Shown here piece after piece: positions 10,459 to 28,908 of a DNA stretch of 37,570 nucleotides. Position 1 is the first letter of the stretch. Every line of letters starts with the position of its first letter. A program made the translations under genes and the position numbers. The notes below the pieces were generated by a model. The model ran no database searches, had not been told where the DNA came from, and worked only from the letters and a program-made list of their open reading frames with translations. The DNA comes from Minisyncoccota bacterium (GTDB lineage Bacteria; Patescibacteriota; Minisyncoccia; UBA6257; 2-01-FULL-56-20), in assembly GCA_035541855.1 (NCBI GenBank), contig DATKMM010000031.1, forward strand, positions 1 through 37,570. The letters are read 5' to 3'.

Positions 10459-10479
10459 ATAATGCCAAGAATTGCGTAT

Positions 10480-10673: not shown

Positions 10674-10677
10674 GTGT

Positions 10678-10683: not shown

Positions 10684-10689
10684 GAACCC

Positions 10690-13087: not shown

Positions 13088-15070
13088 ATGATCAAAAAAT
13101 CAGAACCACAGCCGCAGAAAGACCGGCCGCACATCCGGCCGCCGGAGCTGCGGCCCCGGCCGGCCAAAACCGCGCCGAAAGAACCGGGTGCCGTCCAGGC
13201 CGGCCGCGACGCGGAACGGAAGCCGAACGCCGACCGACCGCGCGGCCCGCGTGCGCCGCGGCGGCAAAGTCTCCCGCCGGTGGGAGCGATATCCCGTTCG
13301 AGCGCTTCGAAGTTCGGTAATAGCCACGGCGGCCAGTTCGGCGCCAACGGTAACGCCGGCCGCGACGCGGCCGGTGCCGGCGCGGCGCCGCGCGGCAATC
13401 CGGACGCGGTGCGCTTCGTCCCGCTCGGCGGCCTCGAAGAGATCGGCCGCAACTGCATGTTCCTCGAATACAGGAACGAGATCGTCCTGATCGACGTCGG
13501 CCTCCAGTTCCCGGAGGAAGAGACGCCGGGCATCGACTACATCATCCCGAACGTGCAGTATCTCGAAAAGAAAAGGCAGAACATCCAGGCGATCATCCTG
13601 ACGCACGGCCACTACGACCACATCGGCGCCCTGCCGCACCTTCTGGCGCGCCTCGGCAATCCCCCGATCTACGCCACCTCGATCACGAAAGCGATCATCG
13701 AGAAGCGCCAGGACGACTTCCCGAACTCGCCGAAGATGAAAGTGATCACCATAAAGAACGGCGACGAGATGAAGATCTCGAACGCCTTCACGGCGCGCTT
13801 TTTCGGCGTGCCGCACACGATCCCGGAAACGACCGGCGTGCTCATGAAGACGCCGATCGGCAACATCGTGCATTTCGCCGACTTCCGCCTCGACTATACG
13901 GATGAGGGCGAGCCGCAGGGACTCGAGGAGTTCGAGCGCATCGGCAAAATGGGCATCCACAGCTTCATGGTGGACAGCACGGCCGCCGAACGCCCCGGCC
14001 ATTCCGTTTCGGAGAAGACCGTCGAGCGGAACCTCGAAGAGATCTTCCGCCAGGCGGAGGGCCGCATCGTGGTCGCCACATTCGCATCGCTCATCACCCG
14101 CATCGCGGAGATCATCAAGATCTCCGAGAAGCTCGGCCGCAAGGTCGCCCTGAACGGCTACTCGATGAAAACGAACATCCAGATCGCCGAACAGCTCGGC
14201 TTCGTGAAGGCCAAGGAGGGCACGATCGTCGCCGTCGAAGAGCTCGGCAAGTACAAGGATGACAAGATCATGATCCTCTCGACGGGCGCGCAGGGCGAAT
14301 CGAACGCCGGCCTCATGAAGATGATCAACGGCGAACACCGCCATATCAAGATCAAGCCGGGCGACACGTTCGTGCTCTCGTCCTCGGTCATCCCGGGCAA
14401 CGAGCGCAGCGTCCAGTCCGTGAAGGACAACCTCGCGCGCCAGGGCGCCATCGTCTACCACTCTGCGCTCGTCGACATCCACTCGTCCGGCCACGCGCCC
14501 AAGGAGGACCTCAAGCTCGTGATGAAGCTCATGAACCCGAAGTTCCTCGTCCCGGTGCACGGCTACTACTTCATGCGCGCCGCGAACGGCCAGTCCGCCC
14601 GCGAGGTGGGCATCCCGAAGGAGAACGTCATCCTGATGGACAACGGCCAGGTCGCCGAGCTCACGCCGGACAAGTTCACGATCACCAAGGAAACCGTGCC
14701 GGCATTCTACGTCATGGTGGACGGCCTCGGCGTCGGCGACGTCGAGGAGGTCGTGCTCCGCGACCGGCGCGCGCTCGCCGCGGAAGGCATGATGATCATC
14801 ATCCTCACGATGAGCCACAACGGCGGCAAGGGATCGCACCTGCTGAAAAACCCCGACATCATCTCGCGCGGCTTCATCTATCTGAAGGAGAACCAGGACC
14901 TCCTCGACGAGATCCGCAAGCGGATCCGCGGCCTCATGCAGCGCCTGCCGCAGAACCAGGACATCGAGCCGGATTACCTGAAGACGCTCATCCGCGACCA
15001 GGTCGGCCAGTTCATCTACAACGCCACCCGCCGCCGCCCGATGATCCTCCCGGTGATAATTGAGATATAA
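13088..15070 (+). CDS. rnj: ribonuclease J with a roughly 105-aa Arg/Pro-rich N-terminal extension
   Basis: A metallo-beta-lactamase/beta-CASP core begins at VRFVPLGGLEEIGRNCM and carries the motifs ILTHGHYDHIGALPHL and IHSSGHA. There is no in-frame ATG between 13088 and the conserved core. Confidence 0.85.
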   Translation: MIKKSEPQPQKDRPHIRPPELRPRPAKTAPKEPGAVQAGRDAERKPNADRPRGPRAPRRQSLPPVGAISRSSASKFGNSHGGQFGANGNAGRDAAGAGAAPRGNPDAVRFVPLGGLEEIGRNCMFLEYRNEIVLIDVGLQFPEEETPGIDYIIPNVQYLEKKRQNIQAIILTHGHYDHIGALPHLLARLGNPPIYATSITKAIIEKRQDDFPNSPKMKVITIKNGDEMKISNAFTARFFGVPHTIPETTGVLMKTPIGNIVHFADFRLDYTDEGEPQGLEEFERIGKMGIHSFMVDSTAAERPGHSVSEKTVERNLEEIFRQAEGRIVVATFASLITRIAEIIKISEKLGRKVALNGYSMKTNIQIAEQLGFVKAKEGTIVAVEELGKYKDDKIMILSTGAQGESNAGLMKMINGEHRHIKIKPGDTFVLSSSVIPGNERSVQSVKDNLARQGAIVYHSALVDIHSSGHAPKEDLKLVMKLMNPKFLVPVHGYYFMRAANGQSAREVGIPKENVILMDNGQVAELTPDKFTITKETVPAFYVMVDGLGVGDVEEVVLRDRRALAAEGMMIIILTMSHNGGKGSHLLKNPDIISRGFIYLKENQDLLDEIRKRIRGLMQRLPQNQDIEPDYLKTLIRDQVGQFIYNATRRRPMILPVIIEI

Positions 15071-15077
15071 TAGGAGC

Positions 15078-16067
15078 ATGGCCAAACCGATCCTTTTTTC
15101 CGGCATCCAACCGACGGGGCGTCTTCATATCGGCAACTACCTGGGTGCACTGAAAAATTTCGTCGAACTGCAGAACTCCGGAAAATATGACTGCTATTTC
15201 TGCATCGTCGACCTGCATTCGTTGACCGGCGATTTCAACCCGAAAGAAAAATCGGCGCAGATCCTGGACCTCGCCGCCGATTTTCTCGCCGCCGGTCTTG
15301 ATCCGAAGCGCTCGGTTATTTTCCAGCAATCGCAGGTCCCCGCGCATAGCGAGCTCACCTGGATCCTGAACACGATCACGCCAATGGGCGAACTGGAACG
15401 GATGACCCAGTTCAAGGACAAATCCGGACGCCAGCGGGAGAATGTGAACGTTGGACTTTTTGATTATCCGGTTTTGATGGCCACCGACATCCTCCTTTAC
15501 GGAACCCGAATCGTCCCGGTGGGAGACGACCAGTTACAGCACCTTGAACTCACCCGGACGCTCGCGCGCAAATTCAATACTCGCTTCGGGCAAACCTTCA
15601 CCGAACCGAAAGCCCTGCTCACCAAAACGCCGCGCGTGATGAGCCTGAAAGATCCGACGAAGAAAATGTCAAAATCAGTGCCGGAAGGATGCCTGTTCCT
15701 CGACGACGGACCGGATGACATCGGGTCCAAGATCGCCCGGGCCGTGACCGACTCCGGCTCGGAAATCGAATACGACCCCGAACGCAAACCGGGGCTTTCC
15801 AACCTCTTGGAAATATACGCGGCTTTCGGCGGATATGGACCGGAAGAGGCAGCAGGGAGATTCGCCGGAAAAAATTATTCTGATTTTAAAAGGACGCTCG
15901 CGGAGCTCATCGCCGACCACTTCGCCGGATTTCGCGCCGCAAAAAAAGCACTGCTTGCAAAACCCGCGACGCTCGTCAAGACGTTGGATGCCGGTTCGAA
16001 AGAAGCATCCAAGATCGCCGAGGCTAAAATGACAGAGATAAAAGAGAAGGTGGGGCTGGTCGTCTAA
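15078..16067 (+). CDS. trpS: tryptophan--tRNA ligase
   Basis: FSGIQPTGRLHIGNYLGA (HIGH region) and KMSKS are present. AGGAG lies 3 nt before the ATG at 15078. The track ORF start at 15060 overlaps the rnj stop and is less likely. Confidence 0.9.
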   Translation: MAKPILFSGIQPTGRLHIGNYLGALKNFVELQNSGKYDCYFCIVDLHSLTGDFNPKEKSAQILDLAADFLAAGLDPKRSVIFQQSQVPAHSELTWILNTITPMGELERMTQFKDKSGRQRENVNVGLFDYPVLMATDILLYGTRIVPVGDDQLQHLELTRTLARKFNTRFGQTFTEPKALLTKTPRVMSLKDPTKKMSKSVPEGCLFLDDGPDDIGSKIARAVTDSGSEIEYDPERKPGLSNLLEIYAAFGGYGPEEAAGRFAGKNYSDFKRTLAELIADHFAGFRAAKKALLAKPATLVKTLDAGSKEASKIAEAKMTEIKEKVGLVV

Positions 16068-16096: not shown

Positions 16097-17335
16097 CTAG
16101 CGATGCGCCCCGGCAAAGATCTCTTCGAACACGAGCGCGAGCCTCCCGGGGTCGTGCACTAATTGGCCGTTGACCAGCTTGGCGACCGGCCGCGGGACCT
16201 CGAACGACGGGCCGCCGGGCTCTATCTTCTTTTCCGGAAGCAACCCCTTCATAACCTCATCGGGAAAGCAGGTCGTATCCACGATAACATGGGTCGGATA
16301 CTGTCCGGTCGCCTTCCGGACGCACCAGACGACGTCGGCCGCCGTGCAAGGAGTCTCAAACCGCGTCTCCCCGATCTTTGTCATGAGGTTCATGACGTAA
16401 ATAAGCGGGGTTGGCGGCGCGGCAACCATTTTTTCCCGCAGGGCTTCCCTGAGCCCGTCGGCACAGAACGGCCCGAAGAGGTTCCCATAAATGCTGCCGC
16501 AACTGAGGATGACGGCGTCGGCGTCGAGAATGGCCCGGACCGCTTCTTCCGAAGCGGAAACCGGAGGATCGATCCGAAGATCCGTGATCCGGTCGCACGG
16601 ATCGGCCAGGACGTCACGGTCCCGAAAATCGATCCGGCATTGCCCGCGTATCTCCGCGCCCGCCCGGGTCTTTGCAACGAGAGTCCCCGGTTCCCAGGTC
16701 GCCGGCATCACCCGGAAATTCCCCGGGATGCGGCAGATGATGTGCAGGGCTTCGAGCGCCAGCTTCAGGGCCAGCTGGGACGGCAGCTTCTGCCGCTCGG
16801 CGACCTTCTGCAGGGTGAACAGCAGATAATTTCCAAGCGAATGCCCGGTGAAACTGTCGCCTTCGAGCTGCTGGTCAAGAACATCGACCAGTAACCGCCA
16901 GATCCTCACGTTTTCCGGGGTTGCCTGGTCCAGACCGAAGATCCGGCGCAGAAGGCCGATGGCTCCGGCGCGGGACGAGGGGTTCTTCATGCGGCGGGAA
17001 AATCGTTCGCCGAACAACAACCTACCCAGCAGTTCCCCGAAGGTCTGCCCTCCTGCGATACTGAACCCGAAACGCATCATCAGGTTTTCGTTCAGCCAGC
17101 CGGTATCAAGCCCGCTGAAGATCCTCGTTATGTCCCCGTACGGCCCGGCGCTTTTCGTCCGCGCCGCCAGCCGGCCGGTCGAGGTAAGATACTTCCCCGC
17201 CGGATCGTCATCATCGACCGAAGTGGTGACCGCGGTCACCCGCATCGGCCGCCGCTTACTGATCATGGCGAGAGCCGCCACGACCGCTTTCTGTCCGTTG
17301 CCGCCTCCTATGGAAGCGACGTTGATCGCTTCCAT
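16097..17335 (-). CDS. YvcK/CofD-family (UPF0052, gluconeogenesis-factor-like) protein, divergent with internal insertion
   Basis: Blocks align to B. subtilis YvcK: IGGGNG, VTAVTTSVDD, GHSLGNYLL, ADAVILSCGSIYGNLFGP and IYVMNLMTKIGET. An extra roughly 70 aa lies between the second and third blocks. Confidence 0.7.
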   Translation of the reverse strand: MEAINVASIGGGNGQKAVVAALAMISKRRPMRVTAVTTSVDDDDPAGKYLTSTGRLAARTKSAGPYGDITRIFSGLDTGWLNENLMMRFGFSIAGGQTFGELLGRLLFGERFSRRMKNPSSRAGAIGLLRRIFGLDQATPENVRIWRLLVDVLDQQLEGDSFTGHSLGNYLLFTLQKVAERQKLPSQLALKLALEALHIICRIPGNFRVMPATWEPGTLVAKTRAGAEIRGQCRIDFRDRDVLADPCDRITDLRIDPPVSASEEAVRAILDADAVILSCGSIYGNLFGPFCADGLREALREKMVAAPPTPLIYVMNLMTKIGETRFETPCTAADVVWCVRKATGQYPTHVIVDTTCFPDEVMKGLLPEKKIEPGGPSFEVPRPVAKLVNGQLVHDPGRLALVFEEIFAGAHR

Positions 17336-17371
17336 GGCAAACCTCCCGTTTAAAAGTTCCTACCCTCCAGC

Positions 17372-18217
17372 TTACTTCACGCCGTCCCAAATGGGAAGAA
17401 CCTGCCGCTTGATGTCTTCCAGAAGCTCGGCGTTGCTCGCGGCGATAAACGGGATCTGCGGGCGCGAAAGATCGGGACGGTCCTCCCTGAAGCCCGACAC
17501 CAGACACCCGGCCTCCCCGAGGATCGGGATCACCGGCGTAATATTGAAAGTAGTGGCATCGGTATGCACCACGGCATCGATCTTGCCGTCAGCCAACAGC
17601 ATGCAGTTATAGATGATCGATCCGAAATTCAGCATCCGGAGCGACCGGTCGCCAAGCATGGTCATGATCTCATACCGGCCGTTCTTGCGCCGCGGCGATG
17701 CGCCCGCGATCAGCGCCTGCGGCACGCTCCGCGCCTCGGGCCGTTCGAACCGGACGAGCGGCCTCCCGTTATCGAACGCGCCCTTGCCGCGCACCGCATG
17801 GACAAACCGATGGAGCTCCGGGAAATAAAACACCCCGAGGATCGGGTCGCCATGCCGCAGGAGCGCCACCGCGATGGAAAAAAATTCGAGGCCCTTCGAA
17901 AAATTCGTTGTTCCGTTGATCGGGTTCACGATCCACTCGTACTCGCAGACGCCGCCCGCCGGCTTCGTCGGACCGGTCTCTTCCCCGTTCACGCAATGGT
18001 CCGGATAGCGGCTCTGGACGCGCTTCACGATCTCGTGCTCGATCAGCCGGTCCGCCTCGGTCACGATATCGCCGAAATATGATTTTTCCTTTTCCGCAAG
18101 CTTCCCGCCGTTGCGCATCATGATGGCCTCTTCGCCGAGCGCACGGAGGAGAACCTGGAGTTCGGCGATCTCCGCCTCCAGGTCCAGTGCCGAAGCGGCA
18201 TGGATTTTGGTTGGCAT
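17372..18217 (-). CDS. inositol monophosphatase (SuhB/IMPase) family protein, probably catalytically inactive
   Basis: IMPase-fold blocks are present: DIVTEADRLIEHEI, VNGEETG, WIVNPINGTTNF (canonical W-x-x-D-P-x-D-G-T) and FNITPVIPILGEAG (canonical W-D-x-x-A-G). All three canonical metal-binding Asp residues are Asn. Confidence 0.75.
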   Translation of the reverse strand: MPTKIHAASALDLEAEIAELQVLLRALGEEAIMMRNGGKLAEKEKSYFGDIVTEADRLIEHEIVKRVQSRYPDHCVNGEETGPTKPAGGVCEYEWIVNPINGTTNFSKGLEFFSIAVALLRHGDPILGVFYFPELHRFVHAVRGKGAFDNGRPLVRFERPEARSVPQALIAGASPRRKNGRYEIMTMLGDRSLRMLNFGSIIYNCMLLADGKIDAVVHTDATTFNITPVIPILGEAGCLVSGFREDRPDLSRPQIPFIAASNAELLEDIKRQVLPIWDGVK

Positions 18218-18275: not shown

Positions 18276-21200
18276 CTACAGTTTCCGGAGGCCGATCCAT
18301 ACATCGCCGCCGTCCAGTTTGGCCGCCGATTCCGCATCGAACTTTTCCGATCGCCTATATTCCACGGCCTCCGCGCCAACATCATTCTTGAGTTCCGTCT
18401 CATGCCGGCTGACCGCCTCCCGGATCCCGGCCGGCAGATCAATGGCGAGCGCGATCCTGTCCTTCGGCTCCAATCTGGCCGCCTGCCGCAATTCCTGCAC
18501 CATGCGGACAACATCGCGAAGCAGGCCTTCTTCCCGCAGCTCCGGCGTGATGACGGTATCGAGCCCGACGTCGCCGGCGATCTTCGCATCGAATACCGCC
18601 TTTTTGACGTTCACCTCGTCGGCCAAAATAGCAAGCAGGTCTTTAGAAAGTTTTAACGTGGCGTCCTTGATCATGAGCGTCGCGAGCGGCTGGCGCACTT
18701 TGATCTTCGCTTCCGCGCGCTTGGCGAGGCCGGCCGCCGCCAATTCGCGCACCGCCCGCATCCCCTCGATCAATCCCCGCTCCCCGCTCTTAGCTCCCGC
18801 GCTCTTATCTCTTGTGCTCTTAGCTCCTATCTCTTTCATAACCGGCCACGCTTCGAGATGCACCGACGCCTTGCCCCCGCCCATCGCCGCATAGAGGGCC
18901 TCCGAAAAGAATGGCGTGAACGGGGCCATCAGTTTGGTAAGCTCGGCGAGCACGAAGCCAAGCGTGGCCGACGCGGCGTCGTGATCCGCCTGGCTCTCCG
19001 GCCGCTGCAGCCGTTTGCGCGAACGGCGGATGTACCAGCGCGACAGGTCGTCGATGAACGCTTCGATATCGAACGCGGCCTCGCGGATCTGGTAGGCATC
19101 CAGTTTCTTCGTGGCCGCCGACGCCAGTTCGCCGAGGCGCGCCAGGATCCATTGGTCAAGGACGTTTTTAGGATCTTTTAACACCGCCGACGTAGCTGCG
19201 GACGTCATATCCCGCCTCGCGTAGGTTTTCCAGAACGCGAACGAATGGTAAACGATGAGATGCACCTGCCGGAGCTTCCTGCCCACTTCGTCCTCGTCGA
19301 AGTTCTTCGGCTCGCCGAACGGCGTGCCCGCGTAGAAATACCACCGGATCGCGTCGACGCCATATTTGTCGATCAGCGCGAACGGCTCGATCACGTTCCC
19401 CTTCGACTTCGACATCTTGTTGCCGAACTTGTCGTTCATGAGCCCGAACGTGATCACGTTGCGGTACGGCGCTTCATAACCGAGCGCGGTGGCGATGGCG
19501 AGCAGGGTATAGAACCAGCCGCGCGTCTGGTCCATGCCTTCGGCGATGTAGTCGGCCGGGAACGCTGGCGGGTGCGGGAGCGCCGCGCCCGGCGTTCCGA
19601 CGCCCTTTGCGGCTTTCGCGCTCCCCCCGAACGGAAAATGGTTCTGCGCGTACGGCATCGCGCCGGAGTCATACCAGACGTCCGCCACTTCCGGCACGCG
19701 CTTCATCTTCCCGCCGCACTTCGGGCACGTCAGGAAAATACCATCGACGAACGGCCGATGGAGGTCGACCGCTCCCATGTCGTCGCGCGGGACGGTCCGC
19801 AGGGACAGCTCCCTGATCTCGGCAAATTTGACGAAATCCCCCTTCCGATTTTCCTTTTCTTCGACCGCCCGTTTCTCGCTCCACCCCTCCGCAGCCTGGA
19901 ACATCGCCCAGATCGGATATTCATGGCTCACCAGCAGAATGTTTTTGCCCTCATGTTCTTTCTCGCAATCAGCCAGGAATCCCCAGACCCGCCGGCGCAG
20001 GTCCCGCAACGATTCGCCGCCTTCCGGACGTTCCTCGAACCGCGCCCGGTACGTGGGATACGCTTCAAGATACTTTTTATCGCGATAGCCGGTCAGGGTC
20101 GGACCGAGACGTATCTCTTCGATACGCTTATCGAAAAACATTTTCGCATCGGCGAGGACGCCCATATCGATCTCCTCGGTCTCCTTCGTCCGCGTAATAT
20201 CGGAACTGATCACGACATCGATCTTCTCGCCGCGCTTCGCGAGCTCTTTTTTGAATTTTTTAATGGACGCCTCCACCTGCTTCCGTCCGCGCGGCGTCAG
20301 ATGCAAAAACTTCCGCTGTCCGGAATCGATGATGTCGAACAGGTTGCTCTCCGCCTCGCCGTGTCGCATCACCCAGTATTTATTTTTTGAACCGCCCGCC
20401 AGCGTGGAAAGCTCGTCCAGGCCCGGCACCACTTCCACGTGGTCGCATGCCTTGCATTCCCAGATCGGCAGCGGCGCGCCCCAATACCGCTCGCGCGACA
20501 GGTTCCAGTCTTTCGCCTCGCGCAGCCATTCGCCGAAACGCCCCTCCTTTATATGCTCCGGCATCCAATGGACCGTCTCGTTGCGCTTCAGGAGCTCCTT
20601 GCGCAACCGGGACATCCCGATGAACCACGAAGTGCGCGCATAGTACAGGATCGGCGTACCGCACCGCCAGCAGAACGGATACTCATGTTCATATTCCTCG
20701 ATGCGCAGCAAATTCCCATGCTGGCGCAAATGCTCGAAAATGTGTTCCTCGGTGTCTTTCGCTTTCACGCACTCGCCCTTGAACGCCGGCACATCCTTGG
20801 TGAACTTCCCCTCCTCATCCACGGTATGATGCTGCGGCAGGCCAACCTCTTTCCCGAGCGCGTAGTCATCCTCGCCGTACATCACGGCGGTATGCACGAC
20901 GCCCGTACCGTCCGTCGTCGTCACAAAGTCCGCCGGATAAATTTTATACGCCTCCGGTTTTCCGAGCGGTGCCACCTCGAAGAGCGGCTCGTATTCGAGG
21001 CCGACCATCTGCGCACCAGTCAATTCATGGGAAACATCCGAACTCTCCAATCCCAGATCCTTCAACCGGTCAACCGCCGCGATGAGATATTCCCCATCGC
21101 GCTGCACGGCGCGATATTTTATACCGGGACCAACGACAAGGGCGACGTTGCCAGGTAACGTCCACGGCGTCGTCGTCCAGGACAGTACATAGATCTTATC

Positions 21201-21938
21201 GTCCGTCTTCGATAAATGGCCGCCGATGTTCTGGCCAGGTTTTAATTTAAACTTCACATACACCGATTTGTCGGCGACCTCCTTATATCCCTGCGCAAGC
21301 TCATGCGAGGAAAGCGCCGTTCCGCAGCGCGTGCACCACGGCACCACCTTATGCCCTTTATACAGCAGCCCGCGCCGGGAGATCTGCGCGAGCGTCCACC
21401 AGATCGTCTCGATATATTCCGGCGCGTACGTCACGTAGGCATTTTCAAGGTCGAGCCAATAGCCGATGCGGTTCGTGAGCCGCTCCCATTCGTCCTTGTG
21501 GATCCAGACCTGCTTCTTCGCCTCCTCGTTGAAACGCTGCACGCCGAACTGCTCGATATCCTTTTTGGTCTTGAACCCAAGCGCCTTTTCCGCCGCCATC
21601 TCGACCGGCAGGCCGTGCGTGTCCCAACCCGCGCGCCGCGGCACATGGTAGCCGCGCATGGTTTTGTACCGCAGCATGACGTCCTTCACCACGCGCGCGA
21701 GCACATGGTGCAGCGCCGGCTTCCCGTTCGCATACGGCGGCCCTTCGTAGAACACGAACTCGCCCTTGTCCGAAATGCCGCTCTTTTTCTCCAGGCTCTT
21801 TTCAAAGATCCCATTCTCGTCCCAAAACTTCAAAATCTTCTCCTCCAGCCGGGGCAGGTCGAACTCGCCGTCCAAAAAATCAGGAGATCGCTTCGCCATC
21901 CCCTTAAAATACCAGATTTTACCGGGATTTTCAAACAA
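18276..21938 (-). CDS. ileS: isoleucine--tRNA ligase (type 2) with an inserted histidine-phosphatase (PGAM-like) domain
   Basis: IleRS signatures are present: PPYANGKPALHH (HIGH-type), the editing-domain WTTTPWTLPGN, GTGVVHTA, the KMSKSKGN loop and DVWYDSGAMP. An extra roughly 205 aa (about aa 518-722) carries the RHGE and SHE motifs. The track start is TTG at 21938; an alternative ATG lies at 21899. Confidence 0.9.
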   Translation of the reverse strand: MFENPGKIWYFKGMAKRSPDFLDGEFDLPRLEEKILKFWDENGIFEKSLEKKSGISDKGEFVFYEGPPYANGKPALHHVLARVVKDVMLRYKTMRGYHVPRRAGWDTHGLPVEMAAEKALGFKTKKDIEQFGVQRFNEEAKKQVWIHKDEWERLTNRIGYWLDLENAYVTYAPEYIETIWWTLAQISRRGLLYKGHKVVPWCTRCGTALSSHELAQGYKEVADKSVYVKFKLKPGQNIGGHLSKTDDKIYVLSWTTTPWTLPGNVALVVGPGIKYRAVQRDGEYLIAAVDRLKDLGLESSDVSHELTGAQMVGLEYEPLFEVAPLGKPEAYKIYPADFVTTTDGTGVVHTAVMYGEDDYALGKEVGLPQHHTVDEEGKFTKDVPAFKGECVKAKDTEEHIFEHLRQHGNLLRIEEYEHEYPFCWRCGTPILYYARTSWFIGMSRLRKELLKRNETVHWMPEHIKEGRFGEWLREAKDWNLSRERYWGAPLPIWECKACDHVEVVPGLDELSTLAGGSKNKYWVMRHGEAESNLFDIIDSGQRKFLHLTPRGRKQVEASIKKFKKELAKRGEKIDVVISSDITRTKETEEIDMGVLADAKMFFDKRIEEIRLGPTLTGYRDKKYLEAYPTYRARFEERPEGGESLRDLRRRVWGFLADCEKEHEGKNILLVSHEYPIWAMFQAAEGWSEKRAVEEKENRKGDFVKFAEIRELSLRTVPRDDMGAVDLHRPFVDGIFLTCPKCGGKMKRVPEVADVWYDSGAMPYAQNHFPFGGSAKAAKGVGTPGAALPHPPAFPADYIAEGMDQTRGWFYTLLAIATALGYEAPYRNVITFGLMNDKFGNKMSKSKGNVIEPFALIDKYGVDAIRWYFYAGTPFGEPKNFDEDEVGRKLRQVHLIVYHSFAFWKTYARRDMTSAATSAVLKDPKNVLDQWILARLGELASAATKKLDAYQIREAAFDIEAFIDDLSRWYIRRSRKRLQRPESQADHDAASATLGFVLAELTKLMAPFTPFFSEALYAAMGGGKASVHLEAWPVMKEIGAKSTRDKSAGAKSGERGLIEGMRAVRELAAAGLAKRAEAKIKVRQPLATLMIKDATLKLSKDLLAILADEVNVKKAVFDAKIAGDVGLDTVITPELREEGLLRDVVRMVQELRQAARLEPKDRIALAIDLPAGIREAVSRHETELKNDVGAEAVEYRRSEKFDAESAAKLDGGDVWIGLRKL

Positions 21939-21943: not shown

Positions 21944-23653
21944 CTAAATTCTTTCCGGCGTTTTGATGCCAAGCAGGGCGAGGCCGTCCGCGAGCGTGCG
22001 GGCGGCGATAGCGGCGAGCGCGAGGCGCGAGGCGCGGCGGGAGGCGCTTTCGTCCTTCAGGATAGGCGTGGTCTCGTAGAACTTGTTCGCCGCGACGGCA
22101 AGATTATAGAGATAGGCCGCGAGGATGCTTGTCGCATACAGCTCGCCGGCCCGCGCGACGGCGTTCGGAAACCCGAAGATCTTCCGCATGAGCGCGAGCT
22201 CGTCCTCCGAATCAAGCCCCGCGAAACTGCGCCGCGCCGCGGACCGTTCCGCTTTCCGCAGAACGCTTTTCAACCGCGCGTAGGTATACTGCAGATACGG
22301 CGCGCTATCGCCGGTAAAATCAAGCATCTTGTCCCAGTCGAAAACGATGTCTGTCATCCGGTTTTCCCTGAGGTCGTTGTACTTCAGCGCGCCGATGCCG
22401 ACCGCCTCCGCGACCTCGTCCTTTTCCGCGTCGGACAGGTCCCGCGCCTTTTCCCCGACGATCTGCCGCGCAAGCGTCCTGGCTTTCAGGATAGCATCCT
22501 TCAGCGAGACCGTCCGCCCTGCGCGCGTGGAAAGCTTCTTGCCGCTTTCCCCGAGCACCAGGCCGTATTTAACATGCTTTAATTCCGCGGAGTCCATGCC
22601 AAGTTTTTTCGCGACGGCGAACAACTGCTCGAACTGCAGGGTCTGCTCGTTGCCGATGACATATAAAATCTTCGCCGGTTTGTATTTTTTGAGGCGATAC
22701 GCCAGGTTCGCGATGTCGCGCGTCAGGTACAGACTGGCCCCGTCCGATTTCTCGATGAGCGCCGGCGGCAGGTTGAACTCATCCAGCCGCACGATGAGCG
22801 CGCCTTCGCTCCGCTCCGCGATACCCCTCTCCAGCAGTTCCCGCGCTATCTTTTTCAATTCGCCCTCGAAAAAGCTTTCGCCGACCCAGACGTCGAAATC
22901 CGGGACGCCAAGCGCCGCATACGCACCCTTGAGCTCTTCGACCGATCTGCTCCTGAACTGCTCCCATAGTTTCCGGTTCTCCGCATCCCCCGCCTCCAGC
23001 TTCCTGAACTCCTCCTGGGCCTGCCTTTCGAGCTCCGGATCCGTTTTCGCCTCTTCATGAAAACGGACGTAGAGCTTCTGCAGCTCCTCGATCGGATCCT
23101 CCCCGATCGCCGCCTGGTCGCCCCACCGGCGGTAGGCCACGATCAATTTGCCGAACTGCGTCCCCCAATCGCCGAGATAGTTCCAACGGATGACGCGGTA
23201 TCCCAAAATTTCGAAAATATTCGCCAGCGCATCGCCGATGATCGTATTCCGCAGATGCCCGACGTTCAGGGTCTTCGCGATGTTCGGCGAAGAATATTCG
23301 ACGATGACCTTTTTCCCGGCGCCGATATTGCCCGCCCCGAACTTCCTGTCCCGCGCGACGCGGGCGAGCTCGTTCTGCAGGGTCTTTTTGCTGAGCCAAA
23401 AATTGATGAAGCCCGGCGGCGCGGCCTCCACTTTCCCGAAAAATCCCGCCGGAGCGTTTTTTGCGATCGCCGCGGCAAGCTCGCCGGCAAGCGCCAGCGG
23501 CTTCTTCCCGCGCGCGGCCGCGAGCCGCATGGCGATGTTCGTGGCATAGTGCCCGAACTCCGGCACTTCCGGGACCGTCAGGCGGGCATCGACCGGCTCG
23601 CCGACCGCCTCCGCGATGCACTCCGCGATGATAGAGGTAATGTCATTCGTCAT
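21944..23653 (-). CDS. argS: arginine--tRNA ligase
   Basis: VEYSSPNIAKTLNVGHLRNTIIGDAL, the KLSTRAGRTV (MSTR-type) loop, and a C-terminal DALR anticodon-binding region. Confidence 0.9.
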   Translation of the reverse strand: MTNDITSIIAECIAEAVGEPVDARLTVPEVPEFGHYATNIAMRLAAARGKKPLALAGELAAAIAKNAPAGFFGKVEAAPPGFINFWLSKKTLQNELARVARDRKFGAGNIGAGKKVIVEYSSPNIAKTLNVGHLRNTIIGDALANIFEILGYRVIRWNYLGDWGTQFGKLIVAYRRWGDQAAIGEDPIEELQKLYVRFHEEAKTDPELERQAQEEFRKLEAGDAENRKLWEQFRSRSVEELKGAYAALGVPDFDVWVGESFFEGELKKIARELLERGIAERSEGALIVRLDEFNLPPALIEKSDGASLYLTRDIANLAYRLKKYKPAKILYVIGNEQTLQFEQLFAVAKKLGMDSAELKHVKYGLVLGESGKKLSTRAGRTVSLKDAILKARTLARQIVGEKARDLSDAEKDEVAEAVGIGALKYNDLRENRMTDIVFDWDKMLDFTGDSAPYLQYTYARLKSVLRKAERSAARRSFAGLDSEDELALMRKIFGFPNAVARAGELYATSILAAYLYNLAVAANKFYETTPILKDESASRRASRLALAAIAARTLADGLALLGIKTPERI

Positions 23654-23692
23654 GGCTTTGCCCCTGGATTATATCGTTTTTCCATCTCCTTG

Positions 23693-23698
23693 TATAAT
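23693..23698 (+). promoter_or_regulatory. -10 box (TATAAT) positioned for leaderless smpB mRNA
   Basis: TATAAT at 23693-23698, a 6-nt gap (GGAGGC), then ATG at 23705. Confidence 0.4.
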
Positions 23699-23704
23699 GG
23701 AGGC

Positions 23705-24139
23705 ATGGCAAAGCCGATCGCGGAAAACCGGCGGGCGCGGTTCGACTACGAAATATCCGGCACCTATGAGGCCGGCATCGAACTGCGCGGCCATGAAGTG
23801 AAAAGCGCGAAGATCGGCCGGTTCCAGGTCGCCGGCGCCCGCGTGCTCATCCGCGGCGGCGAAGCATACCTCGTGAACGCCCACATCCCGCCTTACCAGC
23901 CCAAAAATACGCCTGATGGCTATGAAGAGGACCGCGCCCGGCGGCTGCTGCTCACGAAGGCCGAGATCAAAGAGCTGACCGGCGCCCTGCGGGAAAAGGG
24001 ACGCATGCTCATTCCCCTCCGCGCGGCCGTGAAGCGGGGGCTCGTCAAGATCGAACTCGGCCTTGCGCGACCGCGCAAAAAATCGGACCAACGGGAGGTC
24101 ATCCGGAAGCGTGCGCACCGGCGCGAGATGGCCGCGTGA
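23705..24139 (+). CDS. smpB: SsrA-binding protein SmpB
   Basis: MAKPIAENRRARFDYEI...GIELRGHEVKS...LLLTKAEIKEL...G..LIPL...IELGLARPRKKSDQR is the canonical SmpB pattern. The long upstream extension of the track ORF (from 23057) is antisense to argS and was discarded. Confidence 0.9.
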   Translation: MAKPIAENRRARFDYEISGTYEAGIELRGHEVKSAKIGRFQVAGARVLIRGGEAYLVNAHIPPYQPKNTPDGYEEDRARRLLLTKAEIKELTGALREKGRMLIPLRAAVKRGLVKIELGLARPRKKSDQREVIRKRAHRREMAA

Positions 24140-25570: not shown

Positions 25571-26674
25571 CTACTTTACTATAAAACCGATGATTTGATA
25601 AGCGGCGGCGGCGATAAAAACCAGCGCGATAGCGTCGAGCAGGAACTTCTGCGCGGGCGGCGGGGCGAGCGCCCGGCGGCCGATGGCGACGATCAATAAA
25701 TATTGCACGCTCAAAAACACGCCACCAACCAGGGTGACGACCACCAAAAAATCATTCAACCCGGCCATCACGCACGCCAGCGGGAAAAAGATGATGAGCG
25801 CCCGCGATCCGACCCGGTTCCACCGCAGGTCCTTCTCGAGGGCGTTCCTGATCTCGCGGGAGATCGGCATCGAACTCGTGGCGACCGCGAAAAGACCCAG
25901 CGCGGCGATGACACCGCGCTTCCAGGGCTCCCATCCGCCAAGACCCGATATCGTGTCCGGCGTTATCTGCGCGCCGCTGCCCAGGATTCCCGAAACGAAC
26001 AGCAAGTAGAGCAGGACGGCGAGCAGCGTTCCCGCAACCAACGGAAGCCACGACGCGAATTTCCAGCGCTTGCCCCTGCTCGATTCGTACGCCGGCTCCA
26101 CGGAGGTCCATCCGGCCACCGAGAAAAGGACGGCTCCAAAAGGCAGGAATGCGCTCGCCATATTGACCGCCGGCGCCCCGCCGAAGCCAAGATGCGGCAG
26201 GGTGGTGACGAAAATGAGCACGATCACGAGCGCGGTGAAGAGGATCCCGACCATTTCTAGTTCAACCACGCGGGCATCGCCGAGAAGCACGATCCCGGCG
26301 ATGAACGCCCAGAACGCCGCGACAGCGATCCCCGGCGGGATCCCCGGGAAACCAAGCTGGATGAACTGGCTGCCAAGGATAAGATAGGCAACCAGCGCCA
26401 GCAGCAGCCCGAGGACGATCGCCGTGAACCCGACCCAGAAACCGCCCGGGCCGAAATACTGGCGCGCCAGCCCCAGCAGGCGCTCTTTCTCCCCGCTGGC
26501 CTCAAGCGTCCTGAAGTAAACCACATGCGCCACGGCGACCATCGCGCCGAGCACGGCAAGATACAGCAGACACAGCAACCACCCCGCTTGGTAGAAAACG
26601 AACGGCAGGGCAAACACGCCATCCCCCACCGTCGCCGCCGCTACGATCGCGGCAACCTTCCAGAATCGGCGCAT
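25571..26674 (-). CDS. amino-acid permease-like polytopic membrane transporter (Aa_trans / aromatic amino acid permease-type)
   Basis: 367 aa with about 10-11 TM helices. The N-terminal block VGDGVFALPFVFYQAGW is typical of this transporter class. Substrate is unknown. Confidence 0.55.
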   Translation of the reverse strand: MRRFWKVAAIVAAATVGDGVFALPFVFYQAGWLLCLLYLAVLGAMVAVAHVVYFRTLEASGEKERLLGLARQYFGPGGFWVGFTAIVLGLLLALVAYLILGSQFIQLGFPGIPPGIAVAAFWAFIAGIVLLGDARVVELEMVGILFTALVIVLIFVTTLPHLGFGGAPAVNMASAFLPFGAVLFSVAGWTSVEPAYESSRGKRWKFASWLPLVAGTLLAVLLYLLFVSGILGSGAQITPDTISGLGGWEPWKRGVIAALGLFAVATSSMPISREIRNALEKDLRWNRVGSRALIIFFPLACVMAGLNDFLVVVTLVGGVFLSVQYLLIVAIGRRALAPPPAQKFLLDAIALVFIAAAAYQIIGFIVK

Positions 26675-26689
26675 GCATTCATTGTACCA

Positions 26690-27865: not shown

Positions 27866-27972
27866 AGCTCCATTCTCCGCCCCATTACGCCGTCATTCAA
27901 GCAGTTTTTTATAATTTCTTCAGTTGCGGGTTGTTTTATTCCGAAAAATCAATACAATACAAGCAAGACCAG

Positions 27973-28059
27973 GGAGGGTTGGCAGAGTGGTCTAACGCGC
28001 CGCACTCGAAATGCGGTTGGGGAGAAATCCCCTCACAGGTTCGAATCCTGTACCCTCCG
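27973..28059 (+). tRNA. tRNA-Ser (anticodon CGA), type II; CCA not encoded
   Basis: Acceptor GGAGGGU/ACCCUCC, anticodon stem CCGCA/UGCGG with loop CUCGAAA, long variable arm GGGGAGAAAUCCCC, and T arm ACAGG-UUCGAAU-CCUGU. Confidence 0.9.
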
Positions 28060-28218
28060 CCCGTTCGTTCGCGGTTCGAGAGACCTTCCGGCCTCGTGTT
28101 TTGTTATCTTTTTGAAATGCAGTTCAGGCGACGAAAGCCGGCAGGCGTCCGGGATTCGAACCGGCTCTGATTCCGGGGAGCATCAGATTGGCATGCGATA
28201 GGTAACGGATGTATCGTT

Positions 28219-28902: not shown

Positions 28903-28908
28903 GGTATA

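What the first reader, a model, noticed from the sequence alone, without database searches (positions are those of the whole stretch)
19773..20387. Histidine-phosphatase (PGAM-superfamily) domain inserted into the zinc knuckle of isoleucyl-tRNA synthetase
**Size and position.**
- The IleRS ORF is 1220 aa, whereas type 2 IleRS is roughly 1000-1050 aa.
- The excess maps to about 205 aa (about aa 518-722) between PIWECKAC (C495, C498) and DLHRPFVD...CPKCGG (C738, C741).
- In T. thermophilus-type enzymes only about a dozen residues separate these two elements.
- Placement inside a loop closed by four Cys ligands is a classic site for a nested domain.

**Identity of the insert.** It carries the full histidine-phosphatase signature:
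- YWVMRHGEAESN (RHG motif, R525-H526)
- LTPRGRKQ
- ISSDITRTKETEE
- EGGESLRDLRRRV
- ILLVSHEYPIW (second catalytic His, H672)

The catalytic residues therefore look intact. I am not aware of a described aaRS with an embedded phosphatase. Possible roles include acting on a phosphorylated nucleotide, tRNA end or alarmone, or moonlighting metabolism in a reduced genome; all of these are speculative.
Basis: partly seen in the sequence, partly recalled or inferred. Interest (0 to 1): 0.75.

Follow-up and report, generated by a model that had tools for sequence, protein, structure and literature searches.

The report
Phosphatase nested inside isoleucyl-tRNA synthetase
The isoleucyl-tRNA synthetase of an ultra-small (Patescibacteria) bacterium carries a complete, apparently active histidine phosphatase inside a zinc-knuckle loop of its catalytic domain, and in sister lineages the same phosphatase is a separate gene packed against the front of ileS, so the two enzymes appear to form a partnership I found no description of.

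Summary
The ileS ORF (18276-21938, minus strand) holds a 211-residue insert (aa 512-722). It matches Pfam His_Phos_1 (E=2.5e-24) and replaces about 9 residues between the two Cys pairs of the second zinc knuckle.

- **Not an artefact.** The same sequence occurs in two other assemblies. All 120 closest IleRS homologues (56-69% identity, Paceibacteria/Patescibacteria) carry the domain.
- **Catalytic residues intact.** R525, H526, R583 and H672 never vary in about 130 nested copies; E608 is E or D in all but one.
- **Confident models.** AlphaFold gives a PGAM-like fold (pLDDT 94.8). Its nearest solved neighbours are small phosphatases (PspA, Rv2419c, PhoE), not mutases. In the full-length model both linkers score 95 or more.
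- **New finding.** Free-standing 186-200 aa homologues sit between argS and ileS. Among 80 metagenomic loci, 37 have that arrangement, 36 have the domain nested at the same site, and 7 contigs are too short to tell. The phosphatase is therefore almost always linked to ileS, adjacent or nested, with one to three switches between the two states.
- **Still open.** The substrate is unknown. The domain matches no characterised equivalog, and I found no literature on it.

I rate it a new variant of a known kind, of moderately high interest.

The parts
18276..21938 (-). ileS ORF, a type 2 isoleucyl-tRNA synthetase. It is 1220 aa from the TTG; the likelier start is the ATG at 21899 (M14), giving 1207 aa. 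The stop codon is 18276-18278.
   Evidence: TIGR00392 ileS scores 835 bits against a cut-off of 621. The full-length AF2 model has pLDDT 89.9 and pTM 0.86. It superposes on IleRS2 8c8v (TMt 0.80) and on 1ile (TMt 0.91).
20406..21899 (-). IleRS N-terminal part (aa 14-511): first Rossmann half, CP1/editing domain, first zinc knuckle (C202/C205, C423/C426), and the WNLSRERYWGAPLPIW motif.
   Evidence: Aligns to 8c8w residues 13-475. Motif positions.
21705..21716 (-). HIGH signature in its non-canonical form, ALHH (aa 75-78).
   Evidence: The [A/G]xHH variant is described for IleRS2 in preprint 10.64898/2026.02.03.703510.
20445..20456 (-). First half of the second zinc knuckle, CKAC (C495, C498).
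   Evidence: Conserved in nested, free-type and outgroup IleRS.
19773..20405 (-). The insertion relative to insert-free IleRS2 (aa 512-722): N-linker, histidine-phosphatase domain, C-linker.
   Evidence: G+C is 0.562 against 0.583 and 0.621 for the flanking gene parts, so there is no strong compositional anomaly.
19869..20375 (-). Pfam His_Phos_1 (PF00300) match, aa 522-690.
   Evidence: E=2.5e-24, 86.4 bits. AF2 of aa 505-730 gives pLDDT 94.8 and pTM 0.92. Foldseek top hits are 4ij5/4ij6, 9mmh, 6s2q, 4qih and 1h2e.
20361..20366 (-). R525-H526 of the RHG motif. H526 is the predicted phospho-accepting nucleophile.
   Evidence: In 130 of 130 nested and 135 of 135 free sequences that cover this column, the residues are R and H. 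Invariant in A5.
20190..20192 (-). R583, the second phosphate-binding Arg (SDITRT).
20115..20117 (-). E608, the predicted general acid/base.
   Evidence: E in 127 and D in 7 of 135 nested sequences that cover the column. Coordinates.
19923..19925 (-). H672, the second catalytic His (SHE).
   Evidence: H in 136 of 137 nested sequences that cover the column. Invariant in A5.
19716..19727 (-). Second half of the second zinc knuckle, CPKC (C738, C741).
   Evidence: Invariant C725/C728 in A5 numbering.
18279..19772 (-). IleRS C-terminal part (aa 723-1220): DLHRPFVD, DVWYDSG, GMDQTRGWF, KMSKS (19404-19418), the anticodon-binding domain and DUF5915.
   Evidence: Aligns to 8c8w residues 485-848. Pfam Anticodon_1 and DUF5915. 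Coordinates.
21944..23653 (-). argS, abutting ileS. In sister lineages the free-standing phosphatase gene lies exactly between argS and ileS; here that slot is empty.
   Evidence: Synteny in L081-L086 and L088-L167.
23669..24139 (+). smpB, divergent from argS. It is part of the conserved smpB<>argS-(phos)-ileS neighbourhood.
   Evidence: The same arrangement appears.

Best explanation
**What it is.** The window encodes a bifunctional enzyme: a working type 2 IleRS with a complete, catalytically competent PhoE/PspA-like histidine phosphatase built into the surface loop closed by the second zinc knuckle of the catalytic domain. By motif order this loop is the CP3 position, between WG.P..W and D.W.DSG.

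**Chemistry (inferred from the superfamily).**
- H526 attacks a phosphomonoester and forms a phospho-histidine intermediate.
- R525, R583 and H672 hold the phosphoryl group.
- E608 protonates the leaving group and activates water.

**Origin (shown).** The domain is the same protein that sister Patescibacteria encode as a 186-200 aa gene wedged between argS and ileS. In most of those loci its stop codon lies within about 10 nt of the ileS start. The whole ORF, from the N.Y..RHGE start to the E.R.L end, sits at one identical site in all nested forms. There have been only one to three switches between 'adjacent gene' and 'nested domain'.

**How it works (inferred).** This clade of the family is found essentially only adjacent to or inside ileS, and the full-length model gives confident linkers. 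The phosphatase therefore most likely acts as a fixed 1:1 partner docked on the IleRS catalytic domain, not as a free cytosolic enzyme. I propose it removes a phosphate from something that meets IleRS. Candidates are a phosphorylated form of the synthetase itself (for example a KMSKS-loop serine), a 3'-phosphorylated tRNA end, or a phosphorylated small molecule that competes at the synthetic site. The substrate is unknown, and no choice among these candidates is supported by data here.
For: **Identity and fold.**
- PF00300 at E=2.5e-24, nested in tRNA-synt_1.
- The insert replaces about 9 residues of IleRS2.
- AF2 of the insert gives pLDDT 94.8. The best Foldseek PDB hits are small histidine phosphatases: 4ij5/4ij6 PspA, 9mmh, 6s2q, 4qih and 1h2e.

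**Activity is retained.**
- R525, H526, R583 and H672 are the same in virtually all of about 130 nested and about 135 free sequences, and E608 is E or D in all but one of each set. These sequences share only about 30-40% identity.
- The four residues are invariant, and E608 at least 90% conserved, in 120 full-length homologues.
- The nested domain diverges no faster than the essential IleRS parts. Mean pairwise identity is 0.40, against 0.42 for the anticodon-binding region and 0.46 for the editing domain.

**IleRS is intact.**
- TIGR00392 scores 835 bits.
- KMSKS, the HIGH variant and all eight knuckle Cys are present.
- The model superposes on IleRS2 with TMt 0.80-0.91.

**Linkage to ileS.**
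- Five of five free-standing homologues looked up lie in argS-phos-ileS.
- Of 80 metagenomic loci, 37 have the free ORF directly upstream of ileS, 36 have it nested at the same site, and 7 are too short to classify.
- The phosphatase stop lies -10 to +13 nt from the ileS ATG in 27 of 32 loci.
- The window has the same smpB/argS/ileS synteny with the slot empty.
- The insertion point is identical in both nested clades.
- Bootstrapped NJ trees give one switch in 26% of replicates, two in 68% and three in 6%.

**Integration.** In the full-length AF2 model (pTM 0.86) the 10-residue blocks covering both linkers score 95-97.

**Real and widespread.** The sequence occurs in independent assemblies. 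All 120 best homologues carry the domain. There are 31 full-length nested representatives among the top 150 clusters at 50% identity.
Against: - No substrate is identified. No step of aminoacylation or editing produces or consumes a phosphomonoester.
- Conserved adjacency in the highly syntenic, compact genomes of this group need not mean functional coupling. argS, smpB and recO are just as conserved as neighbours, without any known functional link to the phosphatase.
- Patescibacterial synthetases seem to tolerate insertions of unrelated domains. Examples are an IS200-like Y1 transposase domain and a GNAT in P0269 and a NUDIX domain in a LeuRS. The nesting could therefore be a tolerated rearrangement.
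- More distant homologues (P0009, P0011) are not next to ileS.
- pLDDT and pTM do not show where the phosphatase pocket points, because no coordinates were available.
- In two loci (L158, L161) no ileS lies within about 1.2-1.5 kb downstream before the contig ends.
Confidence: 0.58

Rival explanations
1. Hitch-hiking housekeeping phosphatase. The phosphatase does a job unrelated to IleRS, such as nucleotide or sugar-phosphate salvage in a reduced genome. It happened to lie upstream of ileS, and a local rearrangement dropped it into a permissive surface loop. It stays active because its own function is needed. IleRS only provides expression and a scaffold.
For: - The catalytic residues are conserved equally in the free and nested forms.
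- The nearest solved relatives are small-molecule phosphatases.
- Other unrelated domains are nested in Patescibacteria class I synthetases: Y1_Tnp and GNAT in P0269, and NUDIX in the LeuRS of L170.
- The neighbourhood smpB-argS-ileS-recO is conserved as a block.
- From general knowledge, ribF lies just upstream of ileS in E. coli without any known functional tie.
Against: - All 73 loci with enough flank keep the gene touching or inside ileS. The stop and start codons mostly overlap or lie within 13 nt.
- The insertion site is identical in the two nested clades.
- The linkers are modelled with pLDDT 95 or more rather than as floppy tethers.
- One lineage carries two tandem copies inside IleRS (P0188).
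Confidence: 0.3
2. The domain is the cell's cofactor-dependent phosphoglycerate mutase, or another named enzyme of the family (CobC, PspA, SixA), fused to IleRS as moonlighting central metabolism.
For: - The best NCBIfam hit of the insert is dPGM_arch.
- phmmer finds the small S. pombe dPGM 1fzt at E=4e-5. That structure gives the highest TMq, 0.72, among the listed Foldseek hits.
Against: **No curated cut-off is reached.**
- dPGM_arch: 56.7 bits against 225.
- PspA: 49.1 against 350.
- CobC: 42.5 against 162.9.
- SixA: 20.1 against 74.5.
- The free homologues also fail: CobC 97 against 163, and dPGM_arch 95 against 225.

**Mutase substrate-binding positions are not kept.**
- The motif 'ERYYG' of 1fzt aligns to 'EEIRLG'.
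- 'WRRSY' aligns to 'YRARF', which is 'YESRF' in the clade consensus.
- 'HGN' is 'HEY' here, and the residue after H672 varies freely among G, E, Q, A, N and D.
Confidence: 0.05
3. A catalytically dead structural module: a phosphate- or RNA-binding platform that helps hold tRNA, with the phosphatase chemistry lost.
For: - Pseudo-enzyme members of this superfamily exist (general knowledge).
- The domain sits on the catalytic domain of an RNA-binding enzyme.
Against: - The nucleophile His, both Arg and the second His do not vary, and the acid/base position is E or D, over hundreds of diverged sequences. The free-standing forms show the same pattern.
- A binding-only module would not need H526 and E608.
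Confidence: 0.04
4. Assembly chimera or frameshift artefact joining a phosphatase gene and ileS.
For: Several database relatives are short fragments broken by frameshifts (P0002-P0007).
Against: - The window has a single uninterrupted ORF.
- The same sequence occurs in two other assemblies.
- The 120 full-length homologues have the same architecture.
- In all 36 nested metagenomic loci the phosphatase shares one uninterrupted reading frame with IleRS sequence; the 31 that cover both IleRS halves are a single frame.
- IleRS sequence resumes in frame on both sides at conserved motifs.
Confidence: 0.01

Closest known systems
Type 2 (eukaryote-like, mupirocin-resistant) bacterial IleRS, e.g. Priestia megaterium IleRS2 (PDB 8c8u/8c8v/8c8w) and Thermus thermophilus IleRS (1ile)
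   Same: The whole IleRS body matches:
- phmmer E=1e-224 to 8c8w.
- The model superposes with TMt 0.80 on 8c8v and 0.91 on 1ile.
- It has the KMSKS motif, two Cys4 knuckles, the Anticodon_1 + DUF5915 C-terminus, and the [A/G]xHH form of the HIGH motif.
   Different: - A 211-residue enzyme domain replaces about 9 residues in the second knuckle loop.
- There is an extra 13-aa Gly/Ala/Pro-rich stretch after DVWYDSG.
Small histidine phosphatases of branch 1: Hydrogenobacter PspA phosphoserine phosphatase (4ij5/4ij6), Geobacillus PhoE (1h2e/1ebb), Mycobacterium Rv2419c GpgP (4qih/4pz9), riboflavin-pathway HFP (9mmh)
   Same: - The fold matches, with Foldseek E about 1e-12 to 1e-10 and TMq 0.63-0.70.
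- It has the RHG, R, E and H catalytic set.
- It is about 190-200 aa with a short cap region.
   Different: - Sequence identity is only 19-27%.
- It is below every curated family cut-off.
- It is never free in this lineage: it is nested in, or in sister lineages packed against, ileS.
- Its substrate is unknown.
Free-standing Patescibacteria 'histidine phosphatase family protein' / 'broad specificity phosphatase PhoE' (e.g. P0048, P0075, P0081)
   Same: - They are the same protein family, scoring 190-215 bits against the profile of nested domains.
- They have the same start and end of the fold, including the C-terminal AEIRELxL-type strand.
- They have the same catalytic residues.
- They share the same smpB/argS/ileS neighbourhood.
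   Different: They are separate ORFs of 186-200 aa between argS and ileS. The partner IleRS is 944-963 aa in the four loci with full-length gene calls and has a short knuckle loop.
IleRS with an embedded GNAT acetyltransferase (NCBIfam NF040702 'ileS_w_GNAT'), and the CP1 editing domain as the classic nested domain of class Ia synthetases
   Same: Both are precedents for a class Ia synthetase hosting an additional enzyme domain inside its catalytic domain. One relative, P0269, carries His_Phos_1 and GNAT together.
   Different: - The window protein has no GNAT domain and scores 308 bits against the cut-off of 1999 for NF040702.
- The guest here is a phosphomonoesterase, whose chemistry has no known place in aminoacylation or editing.
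Bifunctional RNase H / acid phosphatase (Rv2228c type, NCBIfam NF005567), and the histidine-phosphatase domain of TFIIIC subunit tau55 (the latter from my own knowledge)
   Same: In both, a branch-1 histidine phosphatase is fused to a protein of nucleic-acid or tRNA-gene metabolism. NF005567 is among the best NCBIfam hits of the insert.
   Different: Those are end-to-end fusions, not nested insertions. The partner is not a synthetase. The score is far below cut-off (56.5 against 326).

Membership tests
Histidine phosphatase superfamily, branch 1 (Pfam PF00300 His_Phos_1) | Profile match above the curated gathering score | tested here: met
   86.4 bits against a cut-off of 21.7, E=2.5e-24, aa 522-690.
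Histidine phosphatase superfamily, branch 1 (Pfam PF00300 His_Phos_1) | RHG motif with the nucleophilic His, plus a second Arg, a second His and an acidic general acid/base | tested here: met
   R525, H526, R583, E608 and H672 are present. They are conserved in about 265 relatives and in 120 full-length homologues.
Histidine phosphatase superfamily, branch 1 (Pfam PF00300 His_Phos_1) | PGAM-like alpha/beta fold | tested here: met
   The AF2 model has pLDDT 94.8. There are 285 PDB matches at E<=1e-3; all 50 listed are histidine phosphatases or mutases. This is a predicted structure, not a solved one.
Histidine phosphatase superfamily, branch 1 (Pfam PF00300 His_Phos_1) | Phosphomonoesterase or phosphomutase activity through a phospho-His intermediate | not testable with these tools
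   Needs an enzyme assay of the wild type against H526A.
Cofactor-dependent phosphoglycerate mutase (dPGM; NCBIfam NF038349, TIGR01258 and others) | Score above the curated equivalog cut-off | tested here: not met
   The insert scores 56.7 bits against 225 for NF038349. The free homologue P0081 scores 95 against 225, and 43.9 against 81.7 for TIGR01258.
Cofactor-dependent phosphoglycerate mutase (dPGM; NCBIfam NF038349, TIGR01258 and others) | Substrate-binding residues: Arg and Tyr after the catalytic Glu (ER.YG), the Arg-Arg pair, and Asn after the second His (HGN). These are family knowledge. | tested here: not met
   In the alignment to 1fzt, EEIRLG aligns to ERYYG, YRARF aligns to WRRSY, and HEY aligns to HGN. 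The clade consensus is YESRF. The position after H672 is variable.
PspA-type phosphoserine phosphatase (NF045917) | Score above the curated cut-off | tested here: not met
   49.1 bits against 350. It is nevertheless the closest solved structure, at 27% identity.
Alpha-ribazole phosphatase CobC (TIGR03162) and phosphohistidine phosphatase SixA (TIGR00249) | Score above the curated cut-off | tested here: not met
   CobC scores 42.5 against 162.9. SixA scores 20.1 against 74.5.
Isoleucyl-tRNA synthetase, type 2 | ileS equivalog profile above cut-off | tested here: met
   TIGR00392 scores 835.4 bits against 621.4.
Isoleucyl-tRNA synthetase, type 2 | Class I signature motifs HIGH and KMSKS, and the two Cys4 knuckles | tested here: met
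   ALHH (the [A/G]xHH variant) at aa 75-78; KMSKS at 841-845; C202/C205/C423/C426 and C495/C498/C738/C741.
Isoleucyl-tRNA synthetase, type 2 | Type 2 C-terminal organisation with no C-terminal zinc-binding domain, and overall fold | tested here: met
   Anticodon_1 + DUF5915. The best PDB matches are IleRS2 and T. thermophilus IleRS.
Isoleucyl-tRNA synthetase, type 2 | Isoleucine-specific aminoacylation of tRNA-Ile | not testable with these tools
   Needs an aminoacylation assay.
IleRS with GNAT domain (NCBIfam NF040702 ileS_w_GNAT) | Score above cut-off and presence of an acetyltransferase domain | tested here: not met
   308 bits against 1999. There is no GNAT Pfam hit in the window protein.
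Acquired mupirocin-resistance IleRS MupA/MupB (NF000257/NF000258) | Score above the exception-model cut-off | tested here: not met
   721 and 743 bits against 1900.
Known anti-phage defence proteins (PADLOC-DB) | Any profile match | tested here: not met
   No hit for the insert or for the free homologue P0081 at E<=0.01.

The most novel reading that the evidence does not exclude
The phosphatase is an obligate functional partner of IleRS that acts on a phosphorylated species tied to tRNA-Ile charging. It might:
- reverse inhibitory phosphorylation of the synthetase's KMSKS loop (the kind of attack HipA-family kinases make on GltX and TrpS);
- remove a 3'-phosphate from a damaged tRNA end before charging;
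- destroy a phosphorylated inhibitor at the synthetic site.

Any of these would be a new class of synthetase-linked repair, regulation or self-protection activity. Together with the NUDIX-in-LeuRS and GNAT-in-IleRS cases, it would be part of a wider habit of Patescibacteria to build auxiliary hydrolases into class Ia synthetases.
Probability: 0.3. Interest if true: 0.85.

Novelty: new variant of a known kind. Interest (0 to 1): 0.62.

Why it matters
Aminoacyl-tRNA synthetases are among the best-studied enzymes, and their nested domains (CP1 editing, zinc knuckles) are textbook material. I found no description of an embedded phosphomonoesterase.

- **Scale.** It is the normal form of an essential enzyme across a large branch of the Patescibacteria. 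These organisms have minimal genomes, in which retained sequence is usually needed.
- **A natural experiment.** The same phosphatase alternates between 'gene packed against ileS' and 'domain inside IleRS'. This is a textbook fusion-plus-neighbourhood signal of a protein partnership.
- **Directly testable.** The nested and split versions can be compared in vitro with H526A and domain-deletion controls.
- **If the link is functional**, it adds a new auxiliary chemistry to the synthetase repertoire.
- **If it is not**, it is a clean example of how a neighbouring gene becomes a nested domain at a zinc-knuckle loop.
- **Annotation.** NCBI labels many of these proteins only 'class I tRNA ligase family protein' or 'histidine phosphatase family protein, partial'.

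Tried and rejected
- **Artefact or chimera.** Rejected by the independent assemblies and by hundreds of homologues.
- **Named enzymes (dPGM, CobC, PspA, SixA, GpmB).** All curated NCBIfam cut-offs are missed by wide margins, for the insert and for the free homologues. Mutase-specific residues are absent.
- **Defence-system link.** There is no PADLOC hit.
- **Antisense genes over the insert.** None has a Pfam match.
- **Recent horizontal acquisition.** G+C and GC3 of the insert are only slightly below the rest of the gene. The domain tree broadly tracks the IleRS tree.
- **Direction of the switch.** I tried to decide whether nesting or the free gene is ancestral, using NJ trees of the IleRS body rooted with Clostridia, Chloroflexi and other IleRS2. 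The result is unresolved. The root state was free in 39%, nested in 16% and ambiguous in 45% of 200 bootstraps, with one to three changes. The NJ tree of the 185-column domain alone is too weak to count events: 18 Fitch changes, many caused by truncated fragments misclassified as 'free'.
- **First word-index search with the insert alone.** It returned only 14 hits, mostly frameshifted fragments. This wrongly suggested rarity. The profile, representative and full-length searches corrected it.
- **Pocket orientation.** I could not find where the phosphatase pocket points relative to the synthetic site, because the structure tool returns no coordinates. The papers read name a CP3 element but give no residue ranges.
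- **Literature.** Six searches for an IleRS or aaRS link with histidine phosphatase, PGAM, Patescibacteria, Nudix or GNAT found nothing relevant.
- **Distant free homologues P0009 and P0011.** They lie in unrelated contexts, so the ileS link is confined to the Patescibacteria clade of the family.

Full report
**1. The observation**

The minus-strand ORF 18276..21938 is 1220 codons from a TTG. Gene callers in other assemblies of the same sequence start at the ATG at codon 14, giving 1207 aa. The finding's coordinates, 19773-20387, translate to aa 518-722.

- Pfam places His_Phos_1 (PF00300) at aa 522-690 with E=2.5e-24 and 86.4 bits (cut-off 21.7). It lies between two stretches of tRNA-synt_1 and is followed by Anticodon_1 and DUF5915.
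- The NCBIfam ileS equivalog scores 835 bits against a cut-off of 621.
- Against PDB sequences, aa 31-511 align to residues 13-475 of Priestia megaterium IleRS2 (8c8w), and aa 723-1117 align to residues 485-848. A 211-residue segment (aa 512-722, window 19773-20405) therefore replaces about nine residues.
- That segment lies between the CKAC (C495, C498) and CPKC (C738, C741) halves of the second zinc knuckle.
- ORFs on the opposite strand over this region have no family match and are shadow ORFs of a G+C-rich gene.

**2. It is real and common**

- The identical argS-ileS stretch is present in an ENA assembly (ERZ27256510, a 17.4-kb contig) and a Logan assembly (SRR8879131), with the same nested architecture recorded for the 1207-aa product.
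- The 120 best database homologues of the full protein (56-69% identity, 1103-1259 aa) all carry PF00300. Where named, they are 'class I tRNA ligase family protein' or 'isoleucyl-tRNA synthetase' from Candidatus Paceibacterota, the Patescibacteria group or Parcubacteria.
- An exhaustive HMMER search of 1.84 billion cluster representatives with the insert alone gave 2096 hits at E<=1e-3. The top 150 include 31 full-length IleRS (1050 aa or more) with the domain at about residue 480-720.
- The scan of one genome per species found the insertion in MAGs labelled Colwellbacteria, Falkowbacteria, Saccharibacteria and Parcubacteria. IleRS2 of Clostridia, Chloroflexota, Cloacimonadota and others lacks it.
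- The G+C content of the insert (0.562; GC3 0.706) is only slightly below the flanking parts of the gene.

The window's organism is therefore a patescibacterium, probably of class Paceibacteria, and the nested domain is the normal state of its IleRS.

**3. The domain looks active, and IleRS looks intact**

- AlphaFold2 on aa 505-730 with a 129-sequence alignment gave mean pLDDT 94.8 and pTM 0.92.
- Foldseek against the PDB returned only histidine phosphatases and mutases. The top hits are small phosphatases: Hydrogenobacter PspA (4ij5/4ij6, 27% identity), the riboflavin-pathway HFP (9mmh), mycobacterial hydrolases (6s2q), Rv2419c (4qih) and, at rank 43-44, PhoE (1h2e/1ebb).
- In an HMM alignment of 283 domain sequences, the nested copies that cover each column show R525 in 130 of 130, H526 in 130 of 130, R583 in 136 of 136, E608 as E (127) or D (7) of 135, and H672 in 136 of 137. 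The free-standing copies show the same pattern.
- R525, H526, R583 and H672 are invariant, and E608 at least 90% conserved, in the 120 full-length homologues. The IleRS motifs KMSKS and the knuckle cysteines are conserved too.
- Among 55 full-length nested proteins, mean pairwise identity is 0.40 for the phosphatase domain, 0.42 for the anticodon-binding region, 0.46 for the editing domain and 0.59 for the catalytic core. The guest domain is therefore under constraint comparable to essential IleRS parts.
- The full-length model (1200 aa, 120-sequence alignment) has pLDDT 89.9 and pTM 0.86. The 10-residue blocks covering both linkers score 95-97.
- Its IleRS body superposes on IleRS2 (8c8v, TMt 0.80) and on T. 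thermophilus IleRS (1ile, TMt 0.91).

**4. The new evidence: the same phosphatase is the upstream neighbour of ileS in sister lineages**

A profile of the insert plus knuckle flanks retrieved two kinds of hit. The first is partial IleRS fragments. The second is a large set of 186-200 aa free-standing proteins scoring 190-215 bits, named 'histidine phosphatase family protein' or 'PhoE' from Pacebacteria, Nealsonbacteria and others.

- All five of these proteins I looked up lie in the order smpB (divergent), argS, phosphatase, ileS, small ORF, recO. In one case a retroelement cassette is interposed.
- The window has the same smpB (23669-24139 +), argS (21944-23653 -) and ileS arrangement. There is no gene between argS and ileS.
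- I scanned metagenome contigs with a profile of the free-standing proteins and classified the 80 best loci by reading frame:
  - 37 have the phosphatase as its own ORF directly upstream of ileS.
  - 36 have it in frame inside ileS.
  - 7 contigs are too short to classify. Five of these still show argS just upstream.
  - In two loci (L158, L161) no ileS lies within the 1.2-1.5 kb available downstream.
- In the split form, the phosphatase stop lies -10 to +13 nt from the ileS ATG in 27 of 32 loci. This is typical of translational coupling.
- The insertion point is the same in all nested forms: after GS..(E/D)L.... and before .(D/E)LHRP. The inserted piece corresponds to the whole free protein, from N.Y..RHGE to the E.R.L strand.
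- More distant homologues (about 30% identity: P0009, P0011) are not next to ileS. The link is therefore specific to this clade.

**5. Evolution**

- NJ trees of the IleRS body (926 columns, rooted with ten insert-free IleRS2) place the window with L140 and L145 in one nested clade. Most other nested sequences form a second clade, and the split-type enzymes lie in between.
- In 200 bootstraps the parsimony number of state changes was one (26%), two (68%) or three (6%). The inferred ancestral state was split (39%), nested (16%) or ambiguous (45%).
- The domain-only tree agrees in separating window-type nested domains from the split-type clade plus L002-type nested domains, but it is weak.
- I conclude that switches were few and that guest and host have co-evolved. 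The direction is unresolved.
- Variants exist. One IleRS has two tandem phosphatase domains (P0188). Another combines an IS200-like Y1 domain, the phosphatase and a GNAT (P0269).

**6. What it is not**

- No curated equivalog is reached by the insert: dPGM_arch 56.7 against 225, PspA 49.1 against 350, CobC 42.5 against 162.9, SixA 20.1 against 74.5.
- None is reached by the free homologues either.
- The positions that bind 2,3-BPG/3-PG in mutases are not kept: EEIRLG instead of ERYYG, YRARF or consensus YESRF instead of WRRSY, and HEY instead of HGN. These positions are family knowledge.
- There is no defence-system match.

**7. Mechanism**

Shown:
- It is a nested domain of confidently predicted fold, conserved in every catalytic residue of the histidine-phosphatase mechanism.
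- The host is an IleRS with all its own motifs.
- This clade of the family is almost always linked to ileS, either adjacent or nested.

Inferred from the superfamily's established chemistry:
- H526 takes the phosphoryl group from a phosphomonoester.
- R525, R583 and H672 bind it.
- E608 acts as the general acid/base.

Inferred from the fusion-plus-neighbourhood pattern and the confidently modelled linkers:
- The phosphatase works as a fixed 1:1 partner on the surface of the IleRS catalytic domain.
- By motif order the site corresponds to the CP3 element named in the yeast IleRS paper, which gives no residue ranges (PMC11685878).

Not known:
- The substrate. Canonical aminoacylation and editing involve no phosphomonoester. 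Candidates are a phosphorylated IleRS loop, a 3'-phosphorylated tRNA end or a phosphorylated small molecule. Nothing here discriminates among them.

The main rival (about 0.3) is that the enzyme does an unrelated housekeeping job and merely rode into a permissive loop of its neighbour. Supporting this, Patescibacteria synthetases clearly tolerate foreign domains.

**8. Comparison and novelty**

- The host is an ordinary type 2 IleRS. The guest is an ordinary-looking small branch-1 histidine phosphatase. The combination and its split or nested alternation are what is new.
- Databases already hold hundreds of these proteins under generic names.
- Six literature searches found no description. A 2026 preprint that annotated domain architectures of 96,219 IleRS sequences never mentions a phosphatase.
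- NCBIfam does recognise an IleRS with a GNAT domain (NF040702), so synthetases with embedded accessory enzymes are a known kind.
- I therefore rate this a new variant of a known kind. Interest is 0.62: surprising to a synthetase specialist and immediately testable, but with an unknown substrate and a credible neutral explanation.

Noticed in passing
L170:233-3082 (+): A leucyl-tRNA synthetase (949 aa) with a NUDIX hydrolase domain nested at aa 383-504, just after the CP1 editing domain. It is a second class Ia synthetase with an embedded hydrolase. The same contig holds P0009, a distant free homologue of the phosphatase that is not next to ileS.
   Followed up: partly
protein P0269 (1066 aa, from the representative search): An IleRS carrying three guest domains: an IS200-like Y1 transposase domain at aa 340-461 (inside the first tRNA-synt_1 match, aa 18-677), His_Phos_1 at 680-854, and a GNAT acetyltransferase at 935-1063, after the D.W.DS motif at about residue 898. 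NCBIfam has a model 'ileS_w_GNAT' (NF040702).
   Followed up: partly
protein P0188 (1087 aa): An IleRS with two tandem His_Phos_1 domains in the knuckle loop (one matched at aa 541-697 by Pfam, the other at about 749-906 by the representative search).
   Followed up: no
L086:6618-8055 and L081:1313-2819: Diversity-generating-retroelement-like cassettes (bAvd plus reverse transcriptase RVT_1). One sits between the phosphatase gene and ileS (L086) and one lies about 3 kb upstream of the phosphatase gene, separated from it by a 1015-aa ORF (L081).
   Followed up: no
window 21705-21716 (-), aa 75-78: The IleRS HIGH signature is ALHH, the [A/G]xHH variant. A 2026 preprint (10.64898/2026.02.03.703510) says this variant confers mupirocin hyper-resistance in IleRS2.
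   Followed up: no
window about 19570-19640 (-), aa about 765-790: An extra Gly/Ala/Pro-rich stretch (GGSAKAAKGVGTPGAALPHPP) between DVWYDSG and GMDQTRGWF. It is the only low-confidence spot near the active site in the model (pLDDT 54). It lies in the same stretch between the D.W.DS and DQTRGWF motifs where P0269's GNAT hit falls (placement in P0269 inferred).
   Followed up: no
L002:4763-5623 (+): This nested IleRS also has a 20-residue insertion between the two cysteines of the first half-knuckle (WQC-QTGKSQIPKWASPSGFSPNSK-QC).
   Followed up: no
window 8230-11046 (-), 13100-15106 (-), 26525-28201 (+), 2854-4023 (-), 36220-37527 (-): Large ORFs (938, 668, 558, 389 and 435 aa) with no Pfam match at E<=1e-3.
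   Followed up: no
window 16097-18217 (-): Directly downstream of ileS lie an inositol-monophosphatase-family gene (17372-18217) and a CofD/YvcK-like gene (16097-17335). A TrpRS/TyrRS-type class I synthetase (15060-16067, +) follows.
   Followed up: no
window 29130-34619 (-): A kdpA-kdpB-kdpC potassium-ATPase operon with a KdpD-sensor/Usp gene lacking a kinase domain. Patches of low G+C (about 0.49-0.53 against 0.61) lie at 1-2000, 28001-29000 and 34001-36000.
   Followed up: no
proteins P0002-P0007 (ENA contigs of 6-160 kb): Close relatives of the nested IleRS (53-80% identity) appear only as 144-262 aa fragments with out-of-frame tails on long contigs. This probably reflects indel errors in those assemblies rather than split genes.
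   Followed up: no
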